Assembly (NCBI RefSeq): GCF_023264855.1
Contig: NZ_JAHFUW010000020.1
Coordinates: 538-64,537, forward strand
DNA length: 64,000 bases
From: Herbiconiux sp.
Lineage (GTDB): Bacteria > Actinomycetota > Actinomycetes > Actinomycetales > Microbacteriaceae
Direction: 5' to 3'
The position numbers and the translations under genes were made by a program. Positions 264 to 32,104 of this stretch are shown here, piece after piece (the first letter of the stretch is position 1; the number at the start of each line of letters is the position of its first letter). Below the pieces are notes generated by a model, which saw only the letters and a program-made list of their open reading frames with translations, made no database searches and was not told the DNA's origin.

Positions 264-2213
264 TCAGCTCGGGAGAACGACGATCCAGACGAACCAGACG
301 ATCATCGCGAGCCAGACGAGCGTGGCGGCGGCCGCCAGAGCAGCCGATCCACGACCGCCCAGACGCCACACCGGGATCAGGCCGAAGAAGCCGACTCCGA
401 GCAGGATGCCGAGCCACGGCAAGATCGTCGGCACGCCGACGAGCGTGAAGCCGGGGTACGCACTGAGCGTCGTGGCGATCACGATCCAGACCGCGCCGAG
501 GAAGACGGCGCCGGTGACCGGCGCGATACCGCTGGCCAGCAGCAAGCCGAAGGGCTCGCGGCGGAGCGTCTGTACGAGCACCGCGATGATCCAGCCGATC
601 AGCCACAGGGCCACGAATACGCCGAAGATCAGCGGCACGGTCAGCTCGAACGCGTTCTTCTGATCGACCGCGGTCACCACCGAGGCGAAGCGCGACGTCG
701 GGTGCACCGAGTCGGCGCTCACCAGCGGGTACGCCGCAGCGCCATCGGTGCACGTCGTCTGCACCGCCGCTCCGGGCGCGGCCAGCCAGGTGGCCAGCTG
801 ATCCATCGCGCAGACATCTGCCGTGGCGCCCGCGCGGCCGTTCGCCCCGACGATCACCAACTGGTTCGAGGGGAACGCCGCCTGCCCCGACTGCGCCGCA
901 CCGACCGAGATCAGCGGGTCGCTGTCGGAGGCGAAGATCAGCGTCGGCTGCGGCGCCGGCGCGGTGGCCCGGTTCTCGGTGGGCGACGGCGGCAGACCGA
1001 GCGATCCGCAGATCGCATCGGCCGCCGTCAGGTAGGTGAGAACCGGGAGCGGCACCGGATCCGTGCTCTCCGAGCCCTCGGCCGCCGGCACCGTGGGGTC
1101 GGCCGACCAGAACGGCTGCTCGTCGCGGCAGGTCTCCAGCCAGTACAGCCCGAGGCTCGTGTCGGCGACGTGCTGCAGGGCGATCGGGATGAAGGGGTTC
1201 AGTGCGCCGGTGTCGCCGTCCGCCAGGCGCGACAGCAGGTACGGCACAGCGGCGGCGGTAGCCGGGTCGTACAGCGCCTGCTGCACGATCGTGACGACAT
1301 CCGACCCGGTCAGCGAGTAGTAGCGCTGCTTTCCGGTGATCGGGTTGGTCATCAGCCCGTTGACCGGCTCGTCGCTGAACAGGGCCGCGGCGGCCGCGAG
1401 ATCCGCGTTCAGATCGGGATACTCCCCGTCGGAGCGCGCCGACAGGGCGGTGAGCGTGTCGCTGAGGGCGAGGTAGGCATCGCCCTTGATGTCACGGTCC
1501 ACCGGGCTGAACGCGTTCAGCACCACGGCATCCACGCCGCCGGAGTCCCGCGAGGCGACGAGCTGCATCACCTTGGTCGACCAGGAGTCGCCGTAGAGCG
1601 TCCAGGTGGGATAGGCCAGAACCTGGCGCAGGTCGATCACGTCGCCCGCGGCATCCGCCTTCGTGTAGGCCGTGGTGTCGCCGCCCGCCGTCGAGAACTC
1701 CGTCAGGCAGTCCTTCAGCGCGAGCCCGACGTCGGCCATCTCCTCGGACGGCGTGTCATCGGTCGTGAAGGTGTTGACGTACGCCGAGGAGGCCGCAGGG
1801 CAGTCCAGGGAGTTGCTGGAATCGACGCCACCGCGCTGCCCAAGCACCACGATGTCGCGGGTTCCGCCGATCCGCGGGTCAGCCGCCAGAGCGAGCGCTG
1901 CATCGGTCGACGTCTGGCCGGGCCCACCCGCCATGGTGACGATCGGCGTGCCCGTCGCCGGCTGGGTCGACGCGGGAATCACCACGTACGGCAGCTCGAT
2001 CGCCCGGCTGGACGGATTCGCCCGGTTCTCCGGAACGGTCAAGGTGGCGCACACCGCGGCGGAGGGGAGTCCGGGATCGCAGGATCGCTCTGTGCTCGTA
2101 GCGGCGCCTGCGCCGGATACCGGTCCGGCCACCAGAACGGCGGCGACGGCGGCACCCAACGCGAACTGCGCAATTATTCGACGGCCCACGTCTCCCTTTC
2201 GACTTCGGGTCAC
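264..2213 (-). CDS. secreted alpha/beta hydrolase (peptidase S33 / tripeptidyl-aminopeptidase-like) fused to a C-terminal polytopic membrane region
   Basis: 649-aa ORF with a GTG start. Signal-like N-terminus (AAVAAVLVAGPVSGAGA), GGPG motif (TMAGGPGQTS) and nucleophile-elbow-like GDSWS. The last ~150 aa form 4-5 hydrophobic helices. The + strand ORF 123..2240 is its antisense shadow. Confidence 0.75.
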   Translation of the reverse strand: MTRSRKGDVGRRIIAQFALGAAVAAVLVAGPVSGAGAATSTERSCDPGLPSAAVCATLTVPENRANPSSRAIELPYVVIPASTQPATGTPIVTMAGGPGQTSTDAALALAADPRIGGTRDIVVLGQRGGVDSSNSLDCPAASSAYVNTFTTDDTPSEEMADVGLALKDCLTEFSTAGGDTTAYTKADAAGDVIDLRQVLAYPTWTLYGDSWSTKVMQLVASRDSGGVDAVVLNAFSPVDRDIKGDAYLALSDTLTALSARSDGEYPDLNADLAAAAALFSDEPVNGLMTNPITGKQRYYSLTGSDVVTIVQQALYDPATAAAVPYLLSRLADGDTGALNPFIPIALQHVADTSLGLYWLETCRDEQPFWSADPTVPAAEGSESTDPVPLPVLTYLTAADAICGSLGLPPSPTENRATAPAPQPTLIFASDSDPLISVGAAQSGQAAFPSNQLVIVGANGRAGATADVCAMDQLATWLAAPGAAVQTTCTDGAAAYPLVSADSVHPTSRFASVVTAVDQKNAFELTVPLIFGVFVALWLIGWIIAVLVQTLRREPFGLLLASGIAPVTGAVFLGAVWIVIATTLSAYPGFTLVGVPTILPWLGILLGVGFFGLIPVWRLGGRGSAALAAAATLVWLAMIVWFVWIVVLPS

Positions 2214-4273: not shown

Positions 4274-4668
4274 CGGAGTGAATGGGCCGGCAGACGGTCG
4301 CGTCGCCGCATCCGGGGCTCAGGCCTCGACTGCGGTGCCGAGGAACGTCCGGGCTCCACAGAGCAGGGCGGTGGGTAACACCCACCCGGGGCAACCCGCG
4401 AGATAGTGCCACAGAAAGTAGACCGCCACGGGCCGCAAGGCCCGGGGTAAGGGTGAAACGGTGGTGTAAGAGACCACCAGAGGCCGCGGTGACGCGGTCG
4501 GCTCGGTAAACCTCGCCCGGAGCAAGGTCAGACAGGATGCGCTAACGCTGCTCGCTCAGCATCCGGGTAGACCGCTTGAGGGTTGCGGTGACGCAACTCC
4601 TAGATAGATGGCCGTCAGGGAGCTCGCTCCCCCACAGAACCCGGCGTATCGCCGGCCCATTCACCTCA
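4274..4668 (+). ncRNA. rnpB: RNase P RNA, bacterial type A
   Basis: Universally conserved blocks in canonical order: GAGGAACGTCCGGGCTCCACAGAGCAGGG, ACAGAAAGTAGACCGCC, GGGTAAGGGTGAAACGGTGGTGTAAGAGACCACCAG, GGTAAACCTCGCCCGGAGCAAGGTCAGA, CTAGATAGATGGCCGTC, ACAGAACCCGGCGTATCGCCGGCC. The 5' GAGTGAATGGGCCGGC pairs with the 3' GCCGGCCCATTCAC. The ends are approximate, within about 5 nt. Confidence 0.9.
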
Positions 4669-4691
4669 CGCCGGCCGGCTCGCAGACCTGC

Positions 4692-5426
4692 TCACAGACC
4701 CGATTCGTCGGTGCGCACCAGGATGCAGGTGCCCTCGGGGTCGATCAGCACCTCGTCGGGGTCGGCGGCACGGATGGCCGCCAGGTCGGTGCCGGTGAGC
4801 GCCACGTTGCTGCCCTTGGACACGCCGTGCTGGAGCAGGGCAGCACCCACGCCGTACCGGCCGCGGATGCGCTCGTAGAGCTCCACCAGGTCGGCCTGGA
4901 TGCCGCCGGCGATGGCGGATCGCTCCGACTCGGCCACGGTGAGCTGCGTGGCGATGCGTCCCTTCTGCTCGTCACGCTGGGCCACCAGCAGGCGCTCCTC
5001 GGTGGCGATGTCATCGCGGCGCGCGGTGATCGCGGCCAGACGCGCCTCGATCTCCTCCATCCGCTCCATCACGCCGAGCTCGATGTCCTCGAGGTTCGAG
5101 CGGCGCACCCGGAGCGATTCGAGCTCGTGCTCGAGACCCTGGATGTCCTTCGACGAGGAGGAGGCCTGCAGCCGCTCCTGGTCGCGCTTCTCGCGCGCGG
5201 CCACGGTCTGGATGTCGCCCTCGACCCGGCCGATCTCGGCCTTGGCGTCTTCGAGTTCGCCCGACACCCCGCCGAACTCCTGCCGGGCGGCGATCGAGTC
5301 GCGCTGCAGTTCGGCCAGCCGAGCCTCCTGCGGCAGGGTGCGCAGGGAGTGCTGCAGCTGCGCGATGCGGTTGTCGGCCGCCTGAAGGTCGAGCAGCTTC
5401 TTCTGTTCGAGGGCCGGAGCCTTCAT
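4692..5426 (-). CDS. COG1579-type coiled-coil protein (zinc-ribbon family, ribbon apparently degenerate)
   Basis: 244 aa. Long heptad-like coiled coil (LLDLQAADNRIAQLQHSL...). Sits immediately downstream of the Nif3-like gene, as in other actinobacteria. The C-terminus has only one Cys. Confidence 0.7.
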   Translation of the reverse strand: MKAPALEQKKLLDLQAADNRIAQLQHSLRTLPQEARLAELQRDSIAARQEFGGVSGELEDAKAEIGRVEGDIQTVAAREKRDQERLQASSSSKDIQGLEHELESLRVRRSNLEDIELGVMERMEEIEARLAAITARRDDIATEERLLVAQRDEQKGRIATQLTVAESERSAIAGGIQADLVELYERIRGRYGVGAALLQHGVSKGSNVALTGTDLAAIRAADPDEVLIDPEGTCILVRTDESGL

Positions 5427-5493
5427 CTGGTTCCTTCGTGTTCGGTGCGGGTGTGCGGGCGCCAGGGGCGCTGGCGGTGGTCGGCGCGGGTGG

Positions 5494-6312
5494 TCACTGC
5501 GTGACGGTGAAATCCCAGGGATCGGTTCGCAACTCGCTCACCACGAACTCCACCTCGGGCAGCCGTTCGGCGAGCTGCCGGGCCGCGGTGTCGAGCCAGA
5601 GCCACTCACTCGCCCAGTGTGACACGTCGATCAGCGCGGGGCCGCCGCCCAGCAGCGACTGCTCGCGGGATTCCGACGCCGGATGGTGTCGAAGATCCGA
5701 GGTGATGTAGACATCGGATGCCCGCACGGCGGCCTCCCCGAGCAGCGAGTCCCCGGCCCCACCGCACAGGGCGACCGTCGACACCTCCTGCTCGAACTCC
5801 CCCGCCGCGCGGATGCCGGTGGCCGTGGCGGGCAGGATCTCGCCGAGGGCGAGCGCCAGGCGTCCGAGCGTGGTGGGCTCGGGCAGGCGCCCTACCCGGC
5901 CGAGGCCCGTTCCGGACCGCGCGCCGGCGACGATCGGCCGCTGTTCGATCAGTCCCAGCCGGCCGGCGATCACCGAGGAGGTTCCGTCGTCGACGATGTC
6001 GGCGTTCGTGTGCGCAGCGATGAGCGCGCACCGGGATCGGATCAGCTTCGCGAGCAGCGCTCCCTTGTAGCCCGTCTCGGCCACGGTGGTGACGCCGCGC
6101 ATCAGCAGCGGATGGTGCACGAGCAGCACGTCGGCCCCCGTCGCGACGGCCTGACCGACCGTCTCGGCCACGGCGTCGACGGCCAGCAGAACGCGGGAGA
6201 CCTCGTCGTCCGGCGCCCCGCTCAACAGCCCCGGAGCATCCCATCCTTCGGCGAACTCCGTGGGCCACAGTCCTTCGACGGCGCTGGTGAATTCTGCAAG
6301 CGTGTGAGGCAC
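5494..6312 (-). CDS. Nif3-like dinuclear metal centre protein (GTP cyclohydrolase 1 type 2 family)
   Basis: 272 aa with a GTG start. Family motifs LLVHHPLLMRG, AAHTNAD and ITSDLRHH. Confidence 0.9.
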   Translation of the reverse strand: MPHTLAEFTSAVEGLWPTEFAEGWDAPGLLSGAPDDEVSRVLLAVDAVAETVGQAVATGADVLLVHHPLLMRGVTTVAETGYKGALLAKLIRSRCALIAAHTNADIVDDGTSSVIAGRLGLIEQRPIVAGARSGTGLGRVGRLPEPTTLGRLALALGEILPATATGIRAAGEFEQEVSTVALCGGAGDSLLGEAAVRASDVYITSDLRHHPASESREQSLLGGGPALIDVSHWASEWLWLDTAARQLAERLPEVEFVVSELRTDPWDFTVTQ

Positions 6313-6464
6313 GCGACCAGACTACTTGCCCGGCCCACCGGCGTGCCCGGCCCGGCGCCGCCCGCCGCCCGCCAGGCGACCCCCGATTCCGTGATTCCTA
6401 CTTCCGTTGAGTACGGCCACCGCCGTCTACTAGTGTCGAGACGGGGACAGACGGGGGACAGAGG

Positions 6465-8882
6465 ATGACACGATCGACTACGGCGGGATCTAAGGCACCG
6501 AGGCGGGTACTCGCGGCACTGATGGGGTTCGCCCTGGTGGCGGGCGCGATCGTGTCCGGGCAGAGCGCGGCGATGGCCGGGGAGACCGTGCAGGCGACCG
6601 GAACGGTGACCCTGGACACGGCCGATGGCACGCCCGCTGCCGGAATCGTGGTCCAGGCCTACACGTACAGTTCGGATCCGCTCTGGATCGCCGAGGCGGA
6701 CTATCCGGCGGCCGACACCACCACCGATGCCGACGGAAGCTACAGCTTCGACGCCCTGACGCCCGGTGCTTACATGCTCGTGGCCGTTCCCGCCTCGGGT
6801 GACGACAGCGCACCCGGACTGATCACCGACGTCGTCGTGAACACCGACACCGACGGTCTCGACTTCGTGCTCGTCCCGGGTGCTGCGGTGTCGGGTACCG
6901 TCGTGTCGCCGGCGTCCGAGCCGGTCTCCGGCGCCGTCCAGTGGTTGCAGTACCCCGGCACCGGAGGGCGGTTCGATCAGTTCGCCACGACCGGAGCAGA
7001 CGGCGCCTTCGCCTTCGGATCGCTGCCTCCCGGCGACTACTCCCTCGTCACGAACAGCACCGCCTTCGATCCGGTGACGGTGCCGCTCTCGCTCGCCGCG
7101 TCGCAGGTGGTCTCCGATCTCACGGTGCAGGTGCTCCCCTACGCCTCGATCTCGGGCCGCGTCACCTCCTCGACTGACCTCGAACAGGGCCTGGAAGGGA
7201 TCGTCGTCACGCGCAACGGGGTGAGCACCACCACGGCGGCCGACGGCACGTGGACTCTAACCGACGACCAGTACCCGACTACGGCATCGCTGGCGTTCTC
7301 CGACCCCACCCAGACCTACCTGCCTCAGTGGTGGAAAAATCAGTCCGATGAGCGCTTGGCGAAGGACATCCGCCTCACCGCCGGCCAGCAGGCCACGGGA
7401 TACGATGCCGCTCTCGTCCCGGCGGCGACGGTCACCGGCACTGTGACCTCGTTCGGCGATGGGCTTCCGATGTCCGGCGTGGCCGTAACCGTGGGGGTGC
7501 CCAATTCCGGTTCGAGCAGCCCTGTCGTGTACACCGACTCCGCCGGCCGGTACTCCGTCAAGGGCATCACCGCCGGCACCTACTCCGTCTGGTTCAGCGC
7601 CCCCGGTTCGACGTTCGTGCCGAAGAGGGTGCCGAATGTCGTGGTGCTGCGTGGCAAGTCCGTGACGACGGATGCGGTTCTGGATCGCGCTTCCGCGATC
7701 GTCGGCAAGGTCACCTTCGAGGGAGACGGCCCCGTCGACCTCACCGCGGTCCGCCTGCGGATGACGGGGCAGACCGTGAGGCCCGACGCCCAGGGCAACT
7801 TCACGTTCACCGGCCTGGCCGGCGGCACCTACAAGTTCGAGGTGATCCCGGACGACCAGACCACGTACGTCAGCCGCTGGTACGTCAACGGCACCGACCC
7901 GAGCAACGCCACCCCCGTGGTCGTGAAGGCGAACGAGCCTCCGACACGCGCGGACGTCGTCGTGCCGCTGCAGGTGTATCCGAAGACCACTCGGGTGTCC
8001 GGCGCCGACCGGTACGCCGTCGCGGTGTCCGTGTCGAAGAAGACGTTCCCGAACGGCGCCCCCACGGTCTATGTCGCGACGGGTGAGACCTACCCGGATG
8101 CGCTATCGGCCGGCGCCGCCGCGGTCACGCAGGGCGGCCCCCTGCTGATGACCCCAAAGAACACCCTTCCCGCCGAGGTGAAAGCCGAGATCCAGCGTCT
8201 GAAGCCGGCGAACATCGTGGTGGTCGGCGGCCCGAACTCCGTCTCCCCCGCCGTGTTCGACGCACTGAAGAAGCTGCAGTCCAAGACCACCCGGGTCGAC
8301 GGCGCAGACCGTTTCGCGGTGTCGCGGGAACTCGCCCTGGACGTCTTCGGTGACGGCGGAGCCGACGTCGTCTACATCGCGACCGGCCTGAACTTCCCCG
8401 ATGCACTCGGCGCCAGCGGCGCCGCCGGATTCCAGGGCGGCCCCGTCCTCCTGGTCAACGGCCAAGCCGGAACCCTCGATGCCGCCACCAAAACGGCACT
8501 GGACACCCTCGATCCCGGCAAGATCGTCATCGCCGGCGGACCCGCATCCGTCAGCACCGGCATCGAGAACGCCCTGAAGGCCTACGGCCCCGTGCAACGC
8601 CTCGGCGGCGCAGACCGCTACGAAGCCTCCGTCGCCATCAACCTCAACGCCTACACCAGCTCCGACGAAGCATTCCTCGTCACCGGCAGCACCTTTCCGG
8701 ATGCTCTCTCCGGCTCGGCCTGGGCCGGCCACCTCGGCGCCCCGCTCTACGTCAGCCGACCCGACTGCGTCCCGCAGGTCACCCTCGACGCCCTCCACAA
8801 GCAAGGCGTCAAGAAGCTCATCCTCATCGGCGGGCCCAACTCGCTCTCCGCCGACGTGCTCGCCCTCAAACCCTGCAGCTAG
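6465..8882 (+). CDS. secreted surface protein A: signal peptide + ~5 CarboxypepD_reg/Ig-like beta-sandwich repeats + 3 CWB2 cell-wall-binding repeats
   Basis: 805 aa. ATG preceded by GGGGACAGAGG. N-terminus RRVLAALMGFALVAGAIVSGQSAAMA. Repeats of pattern GTV..DG.P..G..V..DG.Y.F..L..G.Y. Three C-terminal modules carry GADR(Y/F), PDAL, GGP(L/V)L and (I/V)(I/V)GGP.S(V/L)S. Confidence 0.85.
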   Translation: MTRSTTAGSKAPRRVLAALMGFALVAGAIVSGQSAAMAGETVQATGTVTLDTADGTPAAGIVVQAYTYSSDPLWIAEADYPAADTTTDADGSYSFDALTPGAYMLVAVPASGDDSAPGLITDVVVNTDTDGLDFVLVPGAAVSGTVVSPASEPVSGAVQWLQYPGTGGRFDQFATTGADGAFAFGSLPPGDYSLVTNSTAFDPVTVPLSLAASQVVSDLTVQVLPYASISGRVTSSTDLEQGLEGIVVTRNGVSTTTAADGTWTLTDDQYPTTASLAFSDPTQTYLPQWWKNQSDERLAKDIRLTAGQQATGYDAALVPAATVTGTVTSFGDGLPMSGVAVTVGVPNSGSSSPVVYTDSAGRYSVKGITAGTYSVWFSAPGSTFVPKRVPNVVVLRGKSVTTDAVLDRASAIVGKVTFEGDGPVDLTAVRLRMTGQTVRPDAQGNFTFTGLAGGTYKFEVIPDDQTTYVSRWYVNGTDPSNATPVVVKANEPPTRADVVVPLQVYPKTTRVSGADRYAVAVSVSKKTFPNGAPTVYVATGETYPDALSAGAAAVTQGGPLLMTPKNTLPAEVKAEIQRLKPANIVVVGGPNSVSPAVFDALKKLQSKTTRVDGADRFAVSRELALDVFGDGGADVVYIATGLNFPDALGASGAAGFQGGPVLLVNGQAGTLDAATKTALDTLDPGKIVIAGGPASVSTGIENALKAYGPVQRLGGADRYEASVAINLNAYTSSDEAFLVTGSTFPDALSGSAWAGHLGAPLYVSRPDCVPQVTLDALHKQGVKKLILIGGPNSLSADVLALKPCS

Positions 8883-8994
8883 GAACCAGCCATGGTCTCG
8901 AACAACCCCCGAACACCCCCGGTTCTGAGACGAGCGCTCGCCACACTCGTGGGCCTGGCCCTCGTCATCGGCAGCACACTCACAGCACAAGGCG
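7647..8994 (+). repeat. copy 1 of a ~1.35-kb direct repeat (period 2415 bp)
   Basis: Manual alignment with 10062..11409. About 20 mismatches, almost all synonymous third positions, fall in 7647..8306. Identity is then perfect over 8307..8983, through the stop codon, the 9-nt spacer and the first ~92 nt of the next gene. Confidence 0.9.
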
Positions 8995-11297
8995 CAGCCA
9001 TGGCTTCCGGCCCTGCGCAGCTCTCGGGAACGGTGACGCTGGACAGTGCTGATGGCGCTCCGGCCGTGGGCGTCATCGTTCAAGCCTACGAAATCCTGGG
9101 CCCGGAAGACCTGGGCTTGATCGCCGACACGAGGACAGCCCCGGACGGTTCCTACTCGCTGGACCTCTACGCTCCGGGACGCTTTACGATCATCACCCGA
9201 CCCGCTGCGGGAGACGGCCGCGCTCCGGCGATCGTCGAGGATTTTCCGGTGACGTCCGATACGGACCTCGACCTGACTCAGGTTGTGGGGGCCACTTTGT
9301 CCGGTACGGTCCTCTCCCCATCGGCCTCGCCTGTTCCCGGCGCGGAAGTGTACGTGGCCCTCCACGGCACCGGTAGCACAGTGTCCCAGGAGACCACGAC
9401 CGACTCGGAAGGTGCGTTCCAGCTTGCCCAGCTTCCGGCCGGTGATTTCACGTTGACTGGGACTTCCGACGACTTCGACCCCGTGTGGGTGCCGGTGACT
9501 CTGGCGCCATCGGAGGCCAAGGCGGGCTTCTCGGTTCAGCTGCTCGCCCATGCGACGATCTCAGGCCGCGTCACGTCGTCGATCGATGCCGACCAGGGAA
9601 TCGGGGGAATCGTGGTCACCCGCGACGGAGTGAGCACGACCACGGCGACGGACGGATCCTGGATTCTGACGGGCGACCAGCGGCAGCCTTTCGGCAGCGG
9701 CACACTGGCGTTCTCGGATCCCACGCAGGCATACCTCCCACAGTGGTGGAAGGGAGCCTCGACGGAATCGGCTGCTAATGGGATCAGGCTTGATCCGGGC
9801 GAACAGGCGACCGGCTATGACGCCCGACTCGTTCCCGCTGGGACCGTCTCCGGCAAGGTGACCTCGTTCGGAGACGGGATCGGCATCGCCGGGGTGTCCG
9901 TATCGGTCACCGGGCCGGACTCTGCGATCGCCGGTAGCAGGGTGATCTCGGACGCCGCAGGCAACTATTCGGTGAGGGGCGTGCCGGCCGGTACGTACTC
10001 CGTCAACTTCTACAAGTCGGGTTCCGGCTTTCTGGGAACCTCCGTGGCAGGCGTAGTCGTCCTGCGTGGCAAGTCCGTGACGACGGATGCGGTTCTGGAT
10101 CGTGCTTCCGCGATTGTCGGCAAGGTCACCTTCGAGGGAGACGGCCCCGTCGACCTCACCGCGGTCCGCCTGCGGATGACGGGGCAGACCGTGAGGCCCG
10201 ATGCCCAGGGCAACTTCACGTTCACCGGCCTGGCCGGCGGCACCTACAAGTTCGAGGTGATCCCGGACGACCAGACCACGTATGTCAGTCGCTGGTACGT
10301 CAACGGCACCGACCCGAGCAACGCCACCCCCGTGGTCGTGAAGGCGAACGAGCCTCCGACACGCGCGGACGTCGTGGTGCCGCTGCAGGTGTATCCGAAG
10401 ACGACCCGGGTGTCCGGCGCCGACCGGTACGCGGTCGCGGTGTCCGTGTCGAAGAAGACGTTCCCGGGCGGCGCTCCCACGGTCTATGTCGCGACGGGTG
10501 AGACCTATCCGGATGCGCTGTCGGCCGGCGCGGCCGCGGTCACGCAGGGCGGCCCCCTGCTGATGACCCCAAAGAACACCCTTCCCGCCGAGGTGAAGGC
10601 AGAGATCCAGCGTCTGAAGCCGGCGAACATCGTGGTGGTCGGCGGCCCGAACTCCGTCTCCCCCGCCGTGTTCGACGCGCTGAAGAAGCTGCAGTCCAAG
10701 ACCACTCGGGTCGACGGCGCGGACCGTTTCGCGGTGTCGCGGGAACTCGCCCTGGACGTCTTCGGTGACGGCGGAGCCGACGTCGTCTACATCGCGACCG
10801 GCCTGAACTTCCCCGATGCACTCGGCGCCAGCGGCGCCGCCGGATTCCAGGGCGGCCCCGTCCTCCTGGTCAACGGCCAAGCCGGAACCCTCGATGCCGC
10901 CACCAAAACGGCACTGGACACCCTCGATCCCGGCAAGATCGTCATCGCCGGCGGACCCGCATCCGTCAGCACCGGCATCGAGAACGCCCTGAAGGCCTAC
11001 GGCCCCGTGCAACGCCTCGGCGGCGCAGACCGCTACGAAGCCTCCGTCGCCATCAACCTCAACGCCTACACCAGCTCCGACGAAGCATTCCTCGTCACCG
11101 GCAGCACCTTTCCGGATGCTCTCTCCGGCTCGGCCTGGGCCGGCCACCTCGGCGCCCCGCTCTACGTCAGCCGACCCGACTGCGTCCCGCAGGTCACCCT
11201 CGACGCCCTCCACAAGCAAGGCGTCAAGAAGCTCATCCTCATCGGCGGGCCCAACTCGCTCTCCGCCGACGTGCTCGCCCTCAAACCCTGCAGCTAG
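8892..11297 (+). CDS. secreted surface protein B (paralog; same architecture)
   Basis: 801 aa, starting 9 nt after gene A. The C-terminal ~410 aa are nearly identical to A. The N-terminal domains are divergent. Confidence 0.85.
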   Translation: MVSNNPRTPPVLRRALATLVGLALVIGSTLTAQGAAMASGPAQLSGTVTLDSADGAPAVGVIVQAYEILGPEDLGLIADTRTAPDGSYSLDLYAPGRFTIITRPAAGDGRAPAIVEDFPVTSDTDLDLTQVVGATLSGTVLSPSASPVPGAEVYVALHGTGSTVSQETTTDSEGAFQLAQLPAGDFTLTGTSDDFDPVWVPVTLAPSEAKAGFSVQLLAHATISGRVTSSIDADQGIGGIVVTRDGVSTTTATDGSWILTGDQRQPFGSGTLAFSDPTQAYLPQWWKGASTESAANGIRLDPGEQATGYDARLVPAGTVSGKVTSFGDGIGIAGVSVSVTGPDSAIAGSRVISDAAGNYSVRGVPAGTYSVNFYKSGSGFLGTSVAGVVVLRGKSVTTDAVLDRASAIVGKVTFEGDGPVDLTAVRLRMTGQTVRPDAQGNFTFTGLAGGTYKFEVIPDDQTTYVSRWYVNGTDPSNATPVVVKANEPPTRADVVVPLQVYPKTTRVSGADRYAVAVSVSKKTFPGGAPTVYVATGETYPDALSAGAAAVTQGGPLLMTPKNTLPAEVKAEIQRLKPANIVVVGGPNSVSPAVFDALKKLQSKTTRVDGADRFAVSRELALDVFGDGGADVVYIATGLNFPDALGASGAAGFQGGPVLLVNGQAGTLDAATKTALDTLDPGKIVIAGGPASVSTGIENALKAYGPVQRLGGADRYEASVAINLNAYTSSDEAFLVTGSTFPDALSGSAWAGHLGAPLYVSRPDCVPQVTLDALHKQGVKKLILIGGPNSLSADVLALKPCS

Positions 11298-11409
11298 GAA
11301 CCAGCCATGGTCTCGAACAACCCCCGAACACCCCCGGTTCTGAGACGAGCGCTCGCCACACTCGTGGGCCTGGCCCTCGTCATCGGCAGCACACTCACCG
11401 CACAAGGCA
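10062..11409 (+). repeat. copy 2 of the ~1.35-kb direct repeat
   Basis: See copy 1. 10722..11398 is identical to 8307..8983. Confidence 0.9.
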
Positions 11410-13727
11410 CAGCCACAGCCGCCGAGACCGTCCACGTGACCGGAACGGTGACGACGGACGCAGCCGATGGAACGCCCGCGGTGGACGTCACCGTCCAGGC
11501 GTACCCCTACAGGTCGGACCCGTTGTGGTTCGCCGACACGGACTTCCCGGAAGCGACCGCCACCACGAGCACCGACGGTTCGTACAGCTTCGACGGTCTG
11601 CACGCCGGCGCCTACATGATCGTGGCGGTGCCCGCGGCGGGCGACGACCGCGCACCGGCCTACATCACCGGCATCGACCTGAGCGCCGACACCGATAGCG
11701 TCGATCTTGTGCTCATGCCGGGCGCGAGCGTGTCGGGCACCGTCGTGTTGCCATCGGGCGCCCCCGTCGTCGGCGCTCTCCTCTGGTTCGAGTATCCGGG
11801 CACGGGAGGACGATTCGACCAGCACCTCGAGTCGGGTCAGGGTGGCACGTTCGCGCTCGCATCGCTCCCCGCGGGCGACTACTCCCTCGGCGCCAACGCC
11901 TCTCATCAGTCGCTGGACCCGGTCGAGCTGCCGCTCACGCTGGTTGCGGCTCAGGTCGTCACCGACCTTACGATCCAGATGCTCCCTCCCGCATCGATCT
12001 CAGGTCGGGTCACGTCGTCGACGGATGCTGACAAGGGACTGAGCGGGGTCATAGTGACCCGAAATGGAAAGAGCACGACCACCCGGGCCGACGGCACGTG
12101 GAGTCTCACCGGGCTCCAGTACGAGTGGGCCGGCAGGCTGTCGTTCTCGGATCCCTCCGAGAACTATCTCCCTCAGTGGTGGAAGGGCCACGCCACGGAA
12201 ACAGGCTCGAAGTACATCGAGCTGTCGCCCGGAGAGCAGGCGACGGGATATGACGCCCAGCTCATTCCAGCGGCGACCATAAGCGGCACAGTGACCTCGT
12301 TCGGCGATGGACAGCCCATCGCCGGTGTGACCGTAACCAGGTCAGGTCCCAACCCGAGCGATCCGGTCGTCACGGTGACTACCGACTCCGCAGGGAACTA
12401 CGCAGTGAAGAGCGTCCCGGCGGGCACATACACCCTCAGGTTCGACGCACCCGGCTCGACGTTCGTGCGGAAGACCATTCAGGACGTAGTCGTCTTGCGA
12501 GGGAAGTCCGTGACGACGGATGCCATCCTCGATCGCACCTCCGGAATCGTCGGCACAGTGACCTTCGAGGGTCCGGGGCCGGTCGATCTCACCAAGGTGC
12601 GCCTAGTGATGACGGGCCAGACCGTGCGCCCTGATGCCGATGGCACCTTCGCCTTCACCGGACTCGCAACAGGCAACTACAAGTTTCAGGTCCTGCCTGA
12701 TGACACCGCCGCGCATGTCAGCCGGTGGTATGTCAACGGCACCGAGCTGAAGAACGCGACGCCGGTCGCGGTCAAGGCCAACGAGCCGCCGGTCCGCATC
12801 GAGGTGACCGTGCCGCTCCAGAAGTATCCGAAGACCACGCGCGTGTCCGGGGCCGACCGGTACGCAGTGGCCGTCGCAGTCTCCCAAAAAGCCTTCCCCG
12901 GAGGGGCTCCGACGGTGTACATCGCAACCGGAGAGAACTATCCCGATGCCCTCTCGGCCGGCGCCGCTGCAGTTACGCAGGGCGGCCCTCTGCTCATGAC
13001 GCCGAAAGGCGCTCTTCCCGCGTCCGTGAAGGCCGAGATCCAGCGACTGAATCCGTCGAAGATCGTGGTCGTCGGCGGGCCGAACTCGGTGTCACCGGCG
13101 GTGTTCTCGGCGCTCACCGCACTGAAGAAGAACACGACCAGGGTGGAGGGTGCCGACCGGTTCGCCGTGTCGCGCAATCTGGCGACCGACGTGTTCGGCG
13201 CTGATACGGATGTGGTCTACATCGCCACCGGGCTGAACTTCCCCGACGCCCTCGGTGCGAGCGGCGCGGCCGGTTTCCAGGGTGGTCCCGTGCTGCTGGT
13301 GGACGGCCGGTCCGACACGCTCGACGCGGCGACGAAGACGGCACTGAGCACTCTGGCACCGGATCGGATCCTGATCGCGGGTGGACCGGCTTCAGTCAGC
13401 GCCGGCATTCAGAACGCCCTCAGCGCGTACGGGACCGTGGAACGACTCGACGGCGCCGACCGCTACGAGGCGTCCGTCGCCATCAACCTCGACGCCTACA
13501 CCAGCTCCGCCGAAGCGTTCCTGGTGACCGGCAGCACCTTCCCGGATGCCCTCTCCGGCTCAGCCTGGGCCGGACACCTCGGCGCCCCGCTGTACGTCAG
13601 CCGACCCGACTGCATCCCACAGGTCACCCTCGACGCCCTCCACCAGCAAGGCGTCAAGAAGCTCACCCTCATCGGCGGGCCCAATTCGCTCTCCGCCGAC
13701 GTGCTCGCCCTCAAGCCCTGTAGCTAG
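11307..13727 (+). CDS. secreted surface protein C (paralog; same architecture)
   Basis: 806 aa, starting 9 nt after gene B. The first 34 aa are identical to B. The N-terminal domains are closest to A. The CWB2 part is clearly diverged from that of A and B. Confidence 0.85.
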   Translation: MVSNNPRTPPVLRRALATLVGLALVIGSTLTAQGTATAAETVHVTGTVTTDAADGTPAVDVTVQAYPYRSDPLWFADTDFPEATATTSTDGSYSFDGLHAGAYMIVAVPAAGDDRAPAYITGIDLSADTDSVDLVLMPGASVSGTVVLPSGAPVVGALLWFEYPGTGGRFDQHLESGQGGTFALASLPAGDYSLGANASHQSLDPVELPLTLVAAQVVTDLTIQMLPPASISGRVTSSTDADKGLSGVIVTRNGKSTTTRADGTWSLTGLQYEWAGRLSFSDPSENYLPQWWKGHATETGSKYIELSPGEQATGYDAQLIPAATISGTVTSFGDGQPIAGVTVTRSGPNPSDPVVTVTTDSAGNYAVKSVPAGTYTLRFDAPGSTFVRKTIQDVVVLRGKSVTTDAILDRTSGIVGTVTFEGPGPVDLTKVRLVMTGQTVRPDADGTFAFTGLATGNYKFQVLPDDTAAHVSRWYVNGTELKNATPVAVKANEPPVRIEVTVPLQKYPKTTRVSGADRYAVAVAVSQKAFPGGAPTVYIATGENYPDALSAGAAAVTQGGPLLMTPKGALPASVKAEIQRLNPSKIVVVGGPNSVSPAVFSALTALKKNTTRVEGADRFAVSRNLATDVFGADTDVVYIATGLNFPDALGASGAAGFQGGPVLLVDGRSDTLDAATKTALSTLAPDRILIAGGPASVSAGIQNALSAYGTVERLDGADRYEASVAINLDAYTSSAEAFLVTGSTFPDALSGSAWAGHLGAPLYVSRPDCIPQVTLDALHQQGVKKLTLIGGPNSLSADVLALKPCS

Positions 13728-14647
13728 GGCAGGTCGACAGGGAGGCCGGTGAGCTCGGCACAGCGCTCCCAGAGACGGCGCTGAAGCGCGAGGTCGCCGG
13801 CCTGCGGGGCGGTGCGCCCGTCGGCGCGCATGCGGTCGAAGTAGGTGCCGCTGGGCGCCGGCACCGGTGAGGCTGAGGAGAGAGCGATCAGCGGGGCGGC
13901 GCCGACCTCGGCGCTCACACCCCAGCGGCTACCGGTGAGGGCGTTGCCGAGCCGGATGAGCGGCGAGCTCGCGCCGAAACTCGTGTTCACGGCACCCGGA
14001 TGCACCGAGTAGGCCTCCACGGCCGGGTCACCTGAGTGCCCGATCGCACCGGAGCCGGTGCCGGCACCGGCGCCGGATGCCGCGGTTCGGCGGGCCAGCT
14101 CGCGCGTGAACAGGATCACCGCGAGCTTCGCCGTGCCGTAGGCGCGCCAGCCGCCGAGCCAGCGGTGGTGCTCGAAGTCGAGGTCGTCGACGTCGAGCCG
14201 GCCGACCCGGTTCGCCACGCTGGAGGTGGTGATGACGCGGCCGTGCCCGGGCGCGTTCTCCTCAGCGGCCCTCTGCACCGACGGCAGGAGCAGGCGCGTG
14301 ATCAGGTAGTGCGAGAGCAGGTTGCTCTGGATGGTGGCCTCGTGGCCGTCGACCGTTCGGAGGCGCTTCGAGATGAGGCCGCCCGCATTGTTCAGCAGCA
14401 CGTCGATCCGCTCGTGCCTCTCGGTGAGCACGGCGGCCAGGGCGCGCACGTCGTCGAACCGGGTGAAGTCGGCGAGGTGGTATTCGGCCCCGATCCGGCG
14501 GGCGACGGCGCGGGTGCGCTCCGGATCGCGCCCCACCACCACGACGGTCTCCCCCTGCTGGGCGAAGTGGGTGGCGGCGACGGCGCCGATTCCGGAGCTG
14601 GCGCCGGTGACGACGATCGTGCGAGGGCTGGTGGTCATGCTGTTCAT
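13724..14647 (-). CDS. SDR family oxidoreductase
   Basis: 307 aa. TGASSGIG cofactor motif, NNAG, and a Y...K catalytic pair (YGTAK). Its 3' end overlaps surface gene C convergently by 4 nt. Confidence 0.85.
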   Translation of the reverse strand: MNSMTTSPRTIVVTGASSGIGAVAATHFAQQGETVVVVGRDPERTRAVARRIGAEYHLADFTRFDDVRALAAVLTERHERIDVLLNNAGGLISKRLRTVDGHEATIQSNLLSHYLITRLLLPSVQRAAEENAPGHGRVITTSSVANRVGRLDVDDLDFEHHRWLGGWRAYGTAKLAVILFTRELARRTAASGAGAGTGSGAIGHSGDPAVEAYSVHPGAVNTSFGASSPLIRLGNALTGSRWGVSAEVGAAPLIALSSASPVPAPSGTYFDRMRADGRTAPQAGDLALQRRLWERCAELTGLPVDLP

Positions 14648-17727: not shown

Positions 17728-18417
17728 ATGCCCGACGAGAAGCACGAGCGCGCCCAGGCCGAGCATCGCTGGCCGGCCGCCATCGGCGTGCTCGCCATCA
17801 TCCTGAGCTACGCCGTTCTGCCGAACGATCTGCTGGGCTACGGGCGCTACGCGGTGATCGCCGTGTGCGCCGCCCTGCTCGTGGCGGTGATCATCATCAA
17901 CCCGCACCGGATGGTGCGCCAGACCGCGTGGTCGCGACGGCTCGGCGTCATCCTGGTGCTGGTGATCGGCGCGACGAACCAGATCATCCTGGTCTTCCTC
18001 GTCTACCTGCTCGTCTCCAACACCGAAGACGGCCCGACCTTGCTGCTGGCCGCCCTGCAGGTGTGGCTCACCAACGTGATCGGCTTCGCGCTGCTCTACT
18101 GGGAGCTCGATCGCGGCGGCCCCGTCGTGCGCACGCAGCGCAGCCGCGATGCGCTCCCGCCGGCCGACTTCCGCTTTCCGCAGGACGAAGACCACGACGC
18201 CTCCCCCGAGGTCGCCGCCCACTCGAGCAAGTCGAGCAACTGGCTGCCCGGCTTCGTCGACTACTTCTACTTCTCGCTGTCGAACTCGATGGCGTTCAGC
18301 CCTACCGACACGATGCCGCTCACGCACCGCTCGAAGCTCCTGATGGGCCTCGAAGCCTTCGCCGGCTTCGTGCTGCTGGCCCTCGTCATAGCCCGCGGAG
18401 TCAGCCTCCTCGGCTGA
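17728..18417 (+). CDS. integral membrane protein (DUF1345-like; name from memory, unverified)
   Basis: 229 aa and 4-5 helices. Contains YWELDRGGP and DYFYFSLSNSMAFSPTDTMP. Confidence 0.65.
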   Translation: MPDEKHERAQAEHRWPAAIGVLAIILSYAVLPNDLLGYGRYAVIAVCAALLVAVIIINPHRMVRQTAWSRRLGVILVLVIGATNQIILVFLVYLLVSNTEDGPTLLLAALQVWLTNVIGFALLYWELDRGGPVVRTQRSRDALPPADFRFPQDEDHDASPEVAAHSSKSSNWLPGFVDYFYFSLSNSMAFSPTDTMPLTHRSKLLMGLEAFAGFVLLALVIARGVSLLG

Positions 18418-27871: not shown

Positions 27872-28450
27872 ATGTCGATCCGTTCCGGCATCCTGTTCCT
27901 GCTCGGCACGGCGGATGCGTACGGCCTGCAGATCCACGGCGAGCTCGAAGAGCGCACCGACCGCGTGGGCCGCATCAACGTCGGCCAGATCTACTCCACC
28001 CTCGATCGGCTCAGCACGGCCGGCCTGGTGCGCATCGCGGGGAGCACCGACGACGGGCTCCCGCTCTACGGCCTCACCACCGACGGACGACTGGTGCGCG
28101 ACGAGTGGCTCGCCGAGACGACCGTCGACACCGCATCCGCCTGGCCGGACATGGTGTTCAAAGTGCTGCTGGTCGGCAGCCTCGACGACGCGGCAGGCAG
28201 CACGCTGCTTCAGCGCTATCGCCGCGCCTGGCACGAGCACAGCGACGAGGCGGGGCCGAACTCGCCGGTCACGCAGAACTCCCCCACCGCCCTGGCGCAG
28301 GGCCGGCTCGCGGATGCGGCACTCGGCTGGCTCGACGACCTCGAGTTGCTTCCCGGCGGTCTCGCCGCGCTCGGCCGCCCGCTACGGAACGAGCGACCCC
28401 GGCGCGGACGTCGTCCGGCCACGGCGCCCGCGGAGACGGCTGAGCAGTGA
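27872..28450 (+). CDS. PadR family transcriptional regulator
   Basis: 192 aa. Winged-helix signature ILFLLGTADAYGLQIHGELEER...GQIYSTLDRLSTAGLV. GGAGGG lies upstream. Confidence 0.75.
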   Translation: MSIRSGILFLLGTADAYGLQIHGELEERTDRVGRINVGQIYSTLDRLSTAGLVRIAGSTDDGLPLYGLTTDGRLVRDEWLAETTVDTASAWPDMVFKVLLVGSLDDAAGSTLLQRYRRAWHEHSDEAGPNSPVTQNSPTALAQGRLADAALGWLDDLELLPGGLAALGRPLRNERPRRGRRPATAPAETAEQ

Positions 28451-30757: not shown

Positions 30758-32094
30758 GCGATCCCCCGCGCCTCGCCGAGCGACCGCCACAGCTCCGCGA
30801 GCCGATCGGACGATCCCACGGGGACGACGTTCCAGCCGGCCTGCCGCAGTTCGAAACCGACGGCCCCCGGCCGGCCGACTACGAAGGCGACCGGATGCGA
30901 CGACATCGCCGCGAGATCGCGCAGCCGGGACGCGGCGAGCGGGCCGGCGCCGCCCCGGGGGCCGGGCCTCCCGGCGGGCTCGTCGCGCTCGGCGACCAGG
31001 GCGAACACGGGCGGCGCGTCGGGCGAGGTGAGGGAGGCCTCCGCGACGGCGGCGCGGAACGCATCCGCGTCGTCCGGCCCGTCGCTCCGCGCGAATGCCA
31101 GCTCACGCACCAGCGCCGACTGGCCGTGCGGGGCGAGGAACGAGCCGTCGGCCTGCGGCTCGTGCCGACCCAGGGAGTGCCCGACGATCCGCACGCCGTA
31201 GCCCTCGGTCACCAGGTGCACGCCGATCGACGCGGCGGCGCTCACCGCCCACTCGAAGGCCGCATCCGGTTCGCCGGCGCCCCGCTGGGAACGGCCGGCC
31301 GCCCTCTCCCGATCGGCGAAGGAGGCGGCGTCGAGCAGGATCACCGCGTCTTGGTCGTTGCGCTGATCGTCTTGCCGCACCATCAGCTCGCCGTGCTTGG
31401 CGGTGGCGGGCCAGTGCACCCGCCGGATGGAGTCGCCCGGCAGGTACTTGCGGGCGATCACGTCTTGCTCGCCGGCGCCGATGAGACGCCGGGAGACCTG
31501 CTCGGCGCCGTCGCCGGTGGCGAGCCGGAGGTCGATCCGGGCGAGCTCGAACACCTCGGGAGTCACCAGGACGGTGTCGGTCGAGCCGAAGGTCAAGCGC
31601 CGGAGGGCACAGCCGAAGGGATCGCTCAGCGTGAGGGTGAACGGCCCGATCTCGTGCGCTCCCCGCACCCGGGTGTCGAGCCGGTACCGCAGCTGCGTCA
31701 CGCCCGGCTCGTCCAGCGCCGAGGAGAGGTAGGCGGGCAGCGCGTCCAGCGCTGCCGGCGGGCTGGGCCGCACGGGGGCGGAGGCGCCCTCCGACCAGAC
31801 GGCGGCGGGGGTGCGCACGCTCCCCCAGTTCTGCAGGAAGGTGTTGACCACCACCAGCTGACCGACCGACCCCGACTCGGGGGCGAAGCGGCGGCGCACC
31901 GAGATGGCGATCCGGCGAAGCACCACCCAGGCGAACGAGAACACCGGTACGGCGAGCAGGAAGCAGGCGAGGTAGGCGAGCTCCTGGCGCCGGAACACCT
32001 GCGTGAGCACGAACACCACCACGGCGGCCGCGATCAGCCCCCAGCCGCGCGCGGTAGGCCGCGGAACGGAGCGAGGTGGGCGATGAGCGGCCAT
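30754..32094 (-). CDS. DUF58 domain protein (vWA-like partner of MoxR ATPases)
   Basis: Internal ATG at 32094, 10 nt after the MoxR stop. Two N-terminal helices. Contains RKYLPGDSIRRVHWPATAK. Confidence 0.8.
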   Translation of the reverse strand: MAAHRPPRSVPRPTARGWGLIAAAVVVFVLTQVFRRQELAYLACFLLAVPVFSFAWVVLRRIAISVRRRFAPESGSVGQLVVVNTFLQNWGSVRTPAAVWSEGASAPVRPSPPAALDALPAYLSSALDEPGVTQLRYRLDTRVRGAHEIGPFTLTLSDPFGCALRRLTFGSTDTVLVTPEVFELARIDLRLATGDGAEQVSRRLIGAGEQDVIARKYLPGDSIRRVHWPATAKHGELMVRQDDQRNDQDAVILLDAASFADRERAAGRSQRGAGEPDAAFEWAVSAAASIGVHLVTEGYGVRIVGHSLGRHEPQADGSFLAPHGQSALVRELAFARSDGPDDADAFRAAVAEASLTSPDAPPVFALVAERDEPAGRPGPRGGAGPLAASRLRDLAAMSSHPVAFVVGRPGAVGFELRQAGWNVVPVGSSDRLAELWRSLGEARGIA

Positions 32095-32104
32095 CGGCGC
32101 CGGA

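What the first reader, a model, noticed from the sequence alone, without database searches (positions are those of the whole stretch)
6465..13727. Tandem array of three paralogous secreted proteins with a triple CWB2-type wall anchor
Seen in the sequence:
- Three same-strand ORFs of 805, 801 and 806 aa are separated by only 9 nt (TAG-gaaccagcc-ATG).
- Each has a signal-peptide-like N-terminus.
- Each has about five ~90-aa repeats with the beta-sandwich pattern GTV..DG.P..G..V ... DG.Y.F..L..G.Y.
- Each ends in three ~100-aa modules carrying GADR(Y/F), PDAL, GGP(L/V)L and (I/V)(I/V)GGP.S(V/L)S. I recognise these modules as cell-wall-binding repeat 2 (CWB2).

Established knowledge: a three-CWB2 module is the non-covalent anchor of the Clostridioides difficile S-layer and Cwp proteins, and it binds an anionic secondary wall polymer.

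Inference: this may be a surface-coat or S-layer-like protein family in an actinobacterium, with a constant wall anchor and a variable outward-facing domain. This is the most accessory-looking locus in the window. Its function and wall ligand are unknown.
Basis: partly seen in the sequence, partly recalled or inferred. Interest (0 to 1): 0.7.

Follow-up and report, generated by a model that had tools for sequence, protein, structure and literature searches.

The report
Three wall-anchored surface protein genes
A Herbiconiux-like groundwater actinobacterium carries three tandem genes for secreted proteins, each a stalk of five beta-sandwich domains on a triple CWB2 wall anchor; this is a real but fairly ordinary accessory surface-protein locus whose copy number differs between close relatives.

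Summary
There are three same-strand genes (6465-8882, 8892-11297, 11307-13727) separated by 9-nt spacers. Each encodes a 38-aa signal peptide, five CarboxypepD_reg-type beta-sandwich domains and three CWB2 repeats (Pfam E about 1e-46).

The predicted anchor (pLDDT 97) superposes on C. difficile Cwp6 as a whole module (TM 0.90).

The host is a Herbiconiux-like Microbacteriaceae bacterium from groundwater. In about 11 Herbiconiux genomes the two flanking genes, an SDR and NIF3, are adjacent. Here 7.4 kb holding the array lies between them.

Contigs from closely related sequencing runs show one gene (organism B), probably two (organism A) and probably three (organism C) at this site.

A 1337-nt tract that runs from the 3' half of one gene across the spacer into the next signal peptide occurs twice. 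This points to gene conversion.

dN/dS is 0.07-0.13 in the anchors and 0.3-0.5 in the stalk domains, so all three genes are under purifying selection.

Triple-CWB2 proteins are abundant in Microbacteriaceae and already annotated. The same domain architecture exists in other MAGs (46% identity). I rate this a new member of a known kind.

S-layer formation, the wall ligand and expression remain untested.

The parts
5494..6312 (-). NIF3/DUF34 gene, left border of the insertion. It is divergent from gene A.
   Evidence: PF01784, E 4e-66. In Herbiconiux relatives it lies directly downstream of the SDR gene.
6335..6464 (+). Non-coding leader and presumed promoter region of the array, ending in a GGGGACAGAGG Shine-Dalgarno-like stretch. 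It is part of the inserted DNA.
   Evidence: The conserved NIF3 upstream motif AGTAGTCTGG ends near 6334. There is no Rfam match and no long inverted repeat. The E. coli-type promoter scan found nothing here. Short repeats here vary between strains.
6465..8882 (+). Gene A, 805 aa. Signal peptide 6465-6578; five CarboxypepD_reg-like domains 6579-7979; CWB2 x3 7980-8879.
   Evidence: The AF2 model of the anchor has pLDDT 97 and matches Cwp6 with TM 0.90.
8883..8891 (+). 9-nt spacer gaaccagcc; together with the preceding TAG it forms an AGGAA ribosome-binding motif.
8892..11297 (+). Gene B, 801 aa. Signal peptide 8892-9005; five beta-sandwich domains; CWB2 x3 10395-11294. D1-D2 are the most divergent of the three genes.
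11298..11306 (+). Second 9-nt spacer, identical to the first.
11307..13727 (+). Gene C, 806 aa. Signal peptide 11307-11420; five beta-sandwich domains; CWB2 x3 12825-13724.
7647..8983 (+). Copy 1 of the 1337-nt recombination tract: D5 and the anchor of A, the spacer, and the signal peptide of B.
   Evidence: Copy 2 lies 2415 nt downstream. There are 20 mismatches, all within 7647-8306. The run 8307-8983 (677 nt) is a perfect match.
10062..11398 (+). Copy 2 of the tract: D5 and the anchor of B, the spacer, and the signal peptide of C.
   Evidence: Depth in the source run is 16.5-18.2 against 10.5-11.5 for unique DNA.
13724..14647 (-). Short-chain dehydrogenase gene, right border of the insertion. 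It converges on gene C, and the two stop codons overlap by 4 nt.
   Evidence: PF00106, E 4e-27. Its homologue is adjacent to NIF3 in about 11 Herbiconiux loci.

Best explanation
The three genes encode paralogous secreted cell-surface proteins, probably made from one transcript.

Proposed mechanism:
1. Each precursor is exported through its 38-aa signal peptide. The route is most likely Sec, but a twin arginine leaves Tat open. Cleavage follows an AXA site.
2. The three C-terminal CWB2 repeats fold into one pseudo-trimeric module. This module holds the protein non-covalently on a secondary wall glycopolymer.
3. Five acidic (pI about 4.1-4.5) transthyretin-like beta-sandwich domains form a stalk of roughly 20 nm. 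It projects outward and has no enzymatic or distinct head domain. The N-terminal domains D1-D2, furthest from the anchor, are the most divergent between paralogues.
4. The likely role is a passive outer coat or adhesive fibril layer whose make-up can change.

The locus is accessory DNA inserted between two core genes. It evolves by homologous recombination between the conserved anchor-coding segments. This gives gene conversion (the duplicated 1337-nt tract) and copy-number change (one to three genes in close relatives).

Shown here: domain content, fold, insertion site, recombination tracts, copy-number differences and purifying selection.
Inferred: export, wall binding, co-transcription, stalk geometry and the coat/adhesin role.
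For: Domains: three PF04122 repeats at 154-158 bits and PF13620 at 123-130 bits in each protein. All five stalk domains best-hit PF13620.

Fold: the anchor model has pLDDT 97 and pTM 0.92. It superposes as a whole on Cwp6 5j72 (TMq 0.90, rmsd 2.6 A), on SlpA HMW chains and on Cwp8. The PDB sequence search finds only CWB2 proteins. The full-length model has five beta-sandwiches. These resemble the CnaB/SdrD-B/pilin stalk domains of Gram-positive surface proteins.

Anchor motifs: RxxGxDR[YF] occurs in each repeat, with arginines invariant across 82 relatives. PILL-like motifs, essential for anchoring in C. difficile, are present (Willing 2015, PMC4973711).

Extracytoplasmic signs: signal-peptide features. 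The only two cysteines form a pair that is co-conserved in 62 of 82 relatives.

Host compatibility: the anchor is 55-58% identical to many Herbiconiux 'cell wall-binding repeat-containing proteins' that carry other N-terminal domains. The host lineage therefore uses this anchor routinely.

Operon signs: 9-nt spacers with AGGAA.

Selection: dN/dS is 0.07-0.13 in the anchors and 0.14-0.49 in D1-D4.

Insertion: SDR and NIF3 are adjacent in Herbiconiux relatives, and none of the 80 syntenic loci has a CWB2 gene there.

Recombination: tract limits. An in-frame A/C hybrid single gene occurs in organism B, with the joint 8627->13473 and 18 nt shared. Organism A has A-like and C-like genes only. Organism C has pieces of all three.
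Against: - There is no expression evidence. Metatranscriptomes from the same study hold nothing real from the locus.
- No dedicated signal-peptide predictor was available.
- The Pfam and NCBIfam scans returned no Tat-signal match, but the RR motif leaves the export route open.
- The PILL-like motif fits the strict pattern in repeat 2 only (PVLL). It deviates at one position in repeats 1 and 3 (PLLM, PLYV).
- The wall polymer of this organism is unknown, and no polymer-synthesis genes lie next to the array.
- Inter-domain geometry in the full-length model is uncertain (pTM 0.55).
- The two-gene state in organism A and the three-gene state in organism C rest on fragmented contigs.
Confidence: 0.75

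Rival explanations
1. The proteins are true S-layer subunits. They would self-assemble into a paracrystalline lattice over the wall, as C. difficile SlpA does, and the three paralogues would be alternative or co-assembling lattice components.
For: The anchor is of the same type and fold as the SlpA HMW subunit. The proteins are acidic, about 78 kDa, and rich in T, S, G, A and V. The cassette-like variation between strains resembles S-layer cassette types.
Against: The SlpA equivalog model scores only 90-92 bits against a cut-off of 650, and only over the anchor. The ectodomain is a string of stalk-type domains with no lattice-forming domain recognised. There is no evidence of high expression; GC3 is lower than in neighbouring genes, and metatranscriptomes are empty. 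My literature searches found no report of an S-layer in Microbacteriaceae.
Confidence: 0.1
2. The proteins are specific adhesins or binding proteins for an environmental ligand, such as a polysaccharide, mineral surface or another cell. Each paralogue's tip domains (D1-D2) would give a different specificity.
For: The stalk resembles MSCRAMM and pilin B-type domains. There are weak hits to the polysaccharide-lyase fn3_3 domain. The greatest divergence between paralogues is in D1-D2, furthest from the anchor.
Against: No recognisable ligand-binding head domain is present. dN/dS stays below 0.5, so there is no sign of positive selection at this resolution. This reading overlaps with the best explanation rather than excluding it.
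Confidence: 0.3
3. The array is a variable shield or decoy against phages or predators. Copy-number change and gene conversion would alter what is exposed on the wall.
For: Copy number is one to three among relatives whose flanking DNA is about 96% identical. The exposed domains are fast-evolving. The locus is accessory.
Against: There is no match to known defence families. No phase-variation switch was found: no long inverted repeats and no riboswitch. There are no phage data.
Confidence: 0.15
4. The three-gene arrangement is an assembly artefact that merges strain variants from a metagenome.
For: The contig comes from a groundwater metagenome. It contains a 677-nt perfect repeat that short reads cannot span.
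Against: The three unique segments have equal depth (10.5-11.5), and the repeat has about 1.6 times that depth. Only one path uses each segment once. A separate run labelled organism C contains pieces specific to A, B and C.
Confidence: 0.05

Closest known systems
Clostridioides difficile Cwp family (Cwp6, Cwp8, Cwp2, Cwp66, SlpA HMW subunit)
   Same: Both have a signal peptide, three tandem CWB2 repeats that fold into one pseudo-trimer (TM 0.90 to Cwp6), conserved arginines and a PILL-like motif, and a variable functional region. Both occur as multiple paralogues, partly clustered.
   Different: The anchor is only 22-26% identical. The phylum and wall chemistry differ, so the ligand cannot be assumed to be PSII. 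The ectodomain of five CarboxypepD_reg domains is unlike the solved Cwp ectodomains. A co-conserved Cys pair is present in CWB2-3.
'Cell wall-binding repeat-containing proteins' of Herbiconiux, Leifsonia, Rhodoglobus and other Microbacteriaceae
   Same: The triple anchor is 45-66% identical, including the Cys pair. The host lineage is the same. Several such genes occur per genome and are sometimes adjacent.
   Different: Those listed are 320-520 aa with other N-terminal domains (CAP, Excalibur, M23, NlpC/P60, Big_9), or with none recognised. None of the listed Herbiconiux proteins has the five-domain stalk.
P0304 (825 aa, MAG GCA_030655295.1), P0004 (731 aa, soil metagenome) and P0008 (1267 aa, HGW-Actinobacteria-1)
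   Same: All combine CarboxypepD_reg repeats with a C-terminal CWB2 triplet. P0304 is collinear with gene A over 787 aa at 46% identity, including the YLPQWW motif and the Cys pair.
   Different: These are single genes in unrelated genomic contexts, not tandem arrays.
SLH-domain surface proteins (for example in Bacillus anthracis)
   Same: They use the same logic: three repeats form a pseudo-trimer that binds a secondary wall polysaccharide non-covalently (Willing 2015; review).
   Different: There is no sequence or fold relationship, and no SLH hit was found here.
Sortase-anchored MSCRAMM and pilin stalk regions (Cna B repeats, SdrD B domains, BcpA, SpaA)
   Same: They contain strings of prealbumin/CnaB-like beta-sandwich domains that project a surface protein away from the wall.
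   Different: There is no LPXTG signal. Scores against the SdrD model are far below the cut-off. Anchoring here is non-covalent. Isopeptide bonds were not examined.

Membership tests
CWB2-anchored cell wall proteins (PF04122 triple module, C. difficile Cwp type) | Three tandem CWB2 repeats | tested here: met
   Each protein has three stretches of PF04122 at 154-158 bits against a cut-off of 24.9.
CWB2-anchored cell wall proteins (PF04122 triple module, C. difficile Cwp type) | The repeats fold together into one pseudo-trimeric alpha/beta module | tested here: met
   The AF2 model has pLDDT 97. Foldseek matches it to Cwp6 5j72 with TMq 0.90 and rmsd 2.6 A over about 300 residues; it also matches SlpA and Cwp8.
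CWB2-anchored cell wall proteins (PF04122 triple module, C. difficile Cwp type) | N-terminal export signal | tested here: met
   n-region charge +3/+4, 15-aa hydrophobic core and an AXA site at residue 38; helix at residues 14-30 in the model. These are manual criteria only; no SignalP or TatP was available.
CWB2-anchored cell wall proteins (PF04122 triple module, C. difficile Cwp type) | P[ILV][ILV][LV] motif in every repeat (needed for anchoring, Willing 2015) | tested here: inconclusive
   The motifs are PLLM, PVLL and PLYV. Repeat 2 fits strictly; repeats 1 and 3 each differ at one position. Y in repeat 3 is the majority residue among Microbacteriaceae relatives.
CWB2-anchored cell wall proteins (PF04122 triple module, C. 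difficile Cwp type) | Non-covalent binding to an anionic secondary wall polymer | not testable with these tools
   This needs wall-binding assays. The only indirect support is the conserved arginines.
S-layer protein SlpA (NCBIfam NF033435 equivalog) | Full-length match above the curated cut-off | tested here: not met
   90-92 bits against a cut-off of 650; only the anchor region aligns.
S-layer protein SlpA (NCBIfam NF033435 equivalog) | Self-assembly into a two-dimensional lattice as a very abundant protein | not testable with these tools
   No imaging or proteomics is available. Metatranscriptomes gave no signal.
CarboxypepD_reg-like transthyretin-fold repeats (PF13620) | HMM match above the gathering score and a beta-sandwich fold | tested here: met
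   123-130 bits per protein. D1, D2 and D4 score above the cut-off individually; D3 and D5 score below it but PF13620 is still their best hit. The model has five beta-sandwiches.
Sortase-anchored MSCRAMM/pilin proteins | C-terminal LPXTG sorting signal | tested here: not met
   No C-terminal LPXTG motif in A, B or C; the only LPXTG-like string is an internal LPMSG in A. The SdrD model scores 15-23 bits against a cut-off of 2500.

The most novel reading that the evidence does not exclude
The array may encode the building blocks of a previously undescribed, recombination-variable outer protein layer in Microbacteriaceae. This could be a true S-layer or a dense fibril coat. Its composition would be reshuffled between strains by anchor-mediated recombination under phage or grazer pressure, and its CWB2 module would recognise an actinobacterial wall glycopolymer different from PSII.
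Probability: 0.1. Interest if true: 0.6.

Novelty: new member of a known kind. Interest (0 to 1): 0.3.

Why it matters
CWB2 anchoring has been studied experimentally almost only in C. difficile. Thousands of actinobacterial proteins carry the same module, and my literature searches found no experimental study of any of them.

This locus offers a compact natural system:
- three paralogues with one anchor type;
- natural one-, two- and three-gene variants in close relatives;
- a high-confidence anchor model.

It could be used to ask what wall polymer CWB2 recognises in Actinobacteria and what such stalk proteins do. It is also a clear example of how a conserved anchor-coding segment drives gene conversion and copy-number change in surface-protein arrays.

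It does not reveal a new mechanism or a new kind of system.

Tried and rejected
- Genome-collection scan with the A/B/C alignment: 57 pattern matches, none a relative.
- Metagenome-contig scan with the same alignment: none.
- Exact-sequence look-up of gene B's product: not on record.
- RNA evidence: three metatranscriptomes from the source study hold only matches of 35 nt or less, which I take to be chance.
- PADLOC defence models: no hit.
- Rfam on the upstream region: no hit. There are no long inverted repeats that would suggest an invertible promoter like cwpV.
- E. coli-type promoter and terminator scan: at background level and uninformative for a 69% GC actinobacterium.
- A single unequal crossover as the origin of gene B: rejected. 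B matches C only over the first ~90 nt of its coding sequence (its signal peptide) and matches A only from D5 onward. Its D1-D4 are 45-70% identical to both, so B is an old lineage later overwritten at both ends.
- Mobile element or prophage origin: rejected. There is no integrase or transposase, and the flanks are core housekeeping genes.
- Long antisense ORFs 8103-9551 and 9561-11906: rejected as genes by their codon-position GC pattern.
- Literature searches for experimental work on actinobacterial CWB2 proteins: they found only a review noting their presence in Micrococcales.
Full report
**Observation.** Each gap is TAG-gaaccagcc-ATG, 9 nt, with an AGGAA ribosome-binding motif. Gene A is preceded by GGGGACAGAGG. 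The proteins are 77% (A/B) and 71% (A/C) identical overall. Long ORFs on the opposite strand (8103-9551, 9561-11906) fail the codon-position GC test and are high-GC artefacts.

**Domain content.** Pfam gives three CW_binding_2 (PF04122) stretches per protein at 154-158 bits (cut-off 24.9, E about 1e-46). It gives CarboxypepD_reg (PF13620) at 123-130 bits. Cut into the five units seen in the structure model, every unit has PF13620 as its best hit. D1, D2 and D4 score above the gathering score alone; D3 and D5 score below it. NCBIfam matches the C. difficile SlpA model only over the anchor (90-92 bits against a cut-off of 650). It matches SdrD only at noise level.

**Export signal.** The N-termini have a +3/+4 n-region containing RR, a 15-residue hydrophobic core and AXA sites after residue 38. 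The n-region pattern RRxLAxL is shared by all three proteins. This supports the ATG at 6465 as the start of gene A, rather than the shorter start used for the database copy (786 aa). There is no C-terminal LPXTG signal. The mature proteins are about 78 kDa and acidic (pI 4.5-4.75). The stalk has pI 4.1-4.5 and the anchor pI 6.2-7.2.

**Structure.**
- With an 82-sequence alignment, the anchor of A (residues 505-805) is predicted at pLDDT 97 and pTM 0.92.
- Foldseek places the whole module on Cwp6 (5j72, TMq 0.90, rmsd 2.6 A, E 7e-24), on SlpA HMW chains and on Cwp8. Nothing else is significant.
- A sequence search of the PDB finds only these CWB2 proteins.
- Each repeat carries RxxGxDR[YF], with arginines invariant or nearly so across the 82 relatives. 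Each also carries a PILL-like motif: PLLM, PVLL, PLYV. That motif is essential for anchoring in C. difficile (Willing 2015, PMC4973711).
- The only two cysteines (C768 and C804 in A) lie in CWB2-3. Both are present in 62 of 82 relatives and only one in 2. This suggests a disulfide and hence an extracytoplasmic location.
- The full-length model (pLDDT 87, pTM 0.55) shows a signal helix, five beta-sandwiches (42-136, 140-222, 227-319, 321-406, 410-500) and the anchor.
- After the CWB2 proteins, its structural neighbours are stalk regions of Gram-positive surface proteins: the B. anthracis TIE protein, pilins, SdrD B domains and Cna B repeats.

**Organism and locus history.**
- The divergent upstream gene encodes NIF3 and the convergent downstream gene encodes a short-chain dehydrogenase.
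- Scanning species-representative genomes with NIF3 shows the closest relatives are Herbiconiux species, at up to 85% amino-acid identity.
- In about 11 Herbiconiux loci the SDR gene ends 0-50 nt before a conserved AGTAGTCTGG motif that precedes the NIF3 start. In the window the same two elements are separated by about 7.4 kb (roughly 6335-13723).
- None of the 80 syntenic loci contains a CWB2 or CarboxypepD_reg gene. The window holds no other CWB2 gene.
- The rest of the window is core housekeeping: panB, RNase P RNA, PDH E1, fabD/H/F, dnaG, uppS, leuA, thyX and PNPase. No integrase or transposase is present.
- GC3 of the three genes (0.82-0.87) is slightly below that of most neighbours (0.89-0.94).

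**Recombination.**
- Sliding identity and an exact comparison at the 2415-nt period show that 7647-8983 equals 10062-11398. This 1337-nt tract runs from D5 through the anchor, stop codon and spacer into the next gene's signal peptide.
- Its 20 mismatches all lie in the first 660 nt. The last 677 nt are identical.
- Gene C's last ~300 nt are 90-97% identical to A and B, whereas the rest of its anchor is 65-85% identical.
- Synonymous divergence tells the same story. dS is 0.7-1.7 in D1-D4 for all pairs. It is 0-0.13 for A/B from D5 onward. It is 0.25 for CWB2-3 of C against A and B, compared with 1.1-1.4 for CWB2-1 and CWB2-2.
- The three lineages are therefore old, but their 3' ends have been homogenised repeatedly.
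- A single unequal crossover cannot produce B, because B's D1-D4 match neither neighbour.
- dN/dS is 0.07-0.13 in the anchors and 0.14-0.49 in D1-D4. All three genes are under purifying selection, and the exposed part evolves several times faster.

**Relatives in public runs.**
- The locus is 94% present in one groundwater metagenome run, which is the source.
- In that run the three unique segments have equal depth (10.5-11.5) and the shared tract has depth 16.5-18.2. Contigs break exactly at the tract borders. Only the order A-B-C uses each segment once, so the arrangement is not an artefact.
- In two runs of organism B, only A-like and flanking pieces are found. In one of them (X4) a single contig runs from NIF3 through an A-like gene and joins 8627 to 13473, continuing into SDR. 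The joint is in frame (4845 nt skipped, 18 nt shared). This is one hybrid gene at the same site.
- Organism A has A-like and C-like genes, and nothing on B's specific half even at 80% identity.
- Organism C has pieces specific to A, B and C.
- Because A, B and C diverged long before these strains did (the flanks differ by about 4%), the one- and two-gene states are best read as deletions by recombination between anchor segments.

**How common is this?**
- The anchor alone has 2246 hits at E<1e-10. The best named ones are 'cell wall-binding repeat-containing proteins' of many Herbiconiux species (55-58% identity), plus Leifsonia, Rhodoglobus, Salinibacterium and others. These are typically 320-520 aa and carry CAP, Excalibur, M23, NlpC/P60 or other N-terminal domains. 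Herbiconiux liukaitaii has two such genes side by side.
- A review already records that CWB2 is frequent in Micrococcales and usually occurs in threes (PMC5817068).
- The stalk alone matches thousands of giant repeat proteins domain by domain (599 at E<=1e-30).
- Among the 150 best hits there is, apart from gene B's own product, only one collinear relative. P0304 (825 aa) is 46% identical over 787 residues, with the same architecture, the YLPQWW motif and the Cys pair. It occurs as a single gene in an unrelated context in a MAG.
- P0004 (34% identity) and P0008 (HGW-Actinobacteria-1, 1267 aa) share the architecture more loosely.

**Interpretation.** The best-supported reading is a set of secreted surface proteins held non-covalently on the wall. 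The CWB2 pseudo-trimer would bind a secondary wall polymer, and the five acidic beta-sandwich domains would project as a stalk without a catalytic or head domain. The three genes are probably co-transcribed.
- Whether they act as a protective coat, as adhesins or as a phage shield cannot be decided from sequence.
- A true S-layer is possible but unsupported.
- Expression could not be checked: metatranscriptomes are empty.
- No regulatory RNA or invertible element was found upstream.
- No defence-system match was found.

**Verdict.** This is a new member of a known and already annotated kind. Its informative features are the natural copy-number series and the clear conversion tracts. Interest is modest.

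Noticed in passing
window 4282-4664 (+): Bacterial RNase P RNA class A, 292 bits, full-length match. It overlaps the start of the mechanical ORF 4608-5504, so that ORF is unlikely to be a gene.
   Followed up: no
window 8766-8768 and 8874-8876 (A C768 and C804), with the equivalent codons in B and C: The only two cysteines of each protein lie in CWB2-3. Both are present in 62 of 82 relatives and only one in 2. This is probably a disulfide tying down the C-terminus in a Microbacteriaceae anchor subtype.
   Followed up: partly
window 6355-6392: Short repeats upstream of gene A differ between close relatives. Organism B has a 14-nt GC-rich insertion after 6355. Organism A has a 7-nt deletion at 6356 and an extra GATTCCGT after 6384. 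They could affect promoter spacing.
   Followed up: no
window 6313-6334 and loci L004-L016 around position 9985: An AGTAGTCTGG motif lies 4-6 nt before the GTG start of NIF3 and is conserved across Herbiconiux. It looks like a -10 element (TAGTCT) for a leaderless mRNA.
   Followed up: no
window 6465-6524: The database copy of gene A's product starts at Met20 (786 aa). The conserved RRxLAxL n-region shared with B and C argues for the ATG at 6465.
   Followed up: partly
window 6465-13727: GC3 of the three genes is 0.87, 0.82 and 0.82, below the 0.89-0.94 of most neighbouring genes. This is a mild compositional sign of accessory or weakly expressed DNA.
   Followed up: no
window 264-2213 (-) and 17728-18417 (+): Two ORFs with a good coding signature (649 and 229 aa) and no Pfam family at E<=1e-5.
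   Followed up: no
window 28382-33223 (-): An operon-like run of TgpA-type transglutaminase, DUF58 and a MoxR-type AAA ATPase.
   Followed up: no
L084 1-2923 (Herbiconiux liukaitaii): Two adjacent CWB2 genes, one fused to a PBP_like_2 domain. Clustering of CWB2 paralogues also occurs elsewhere in the genus.
   Followed up: no
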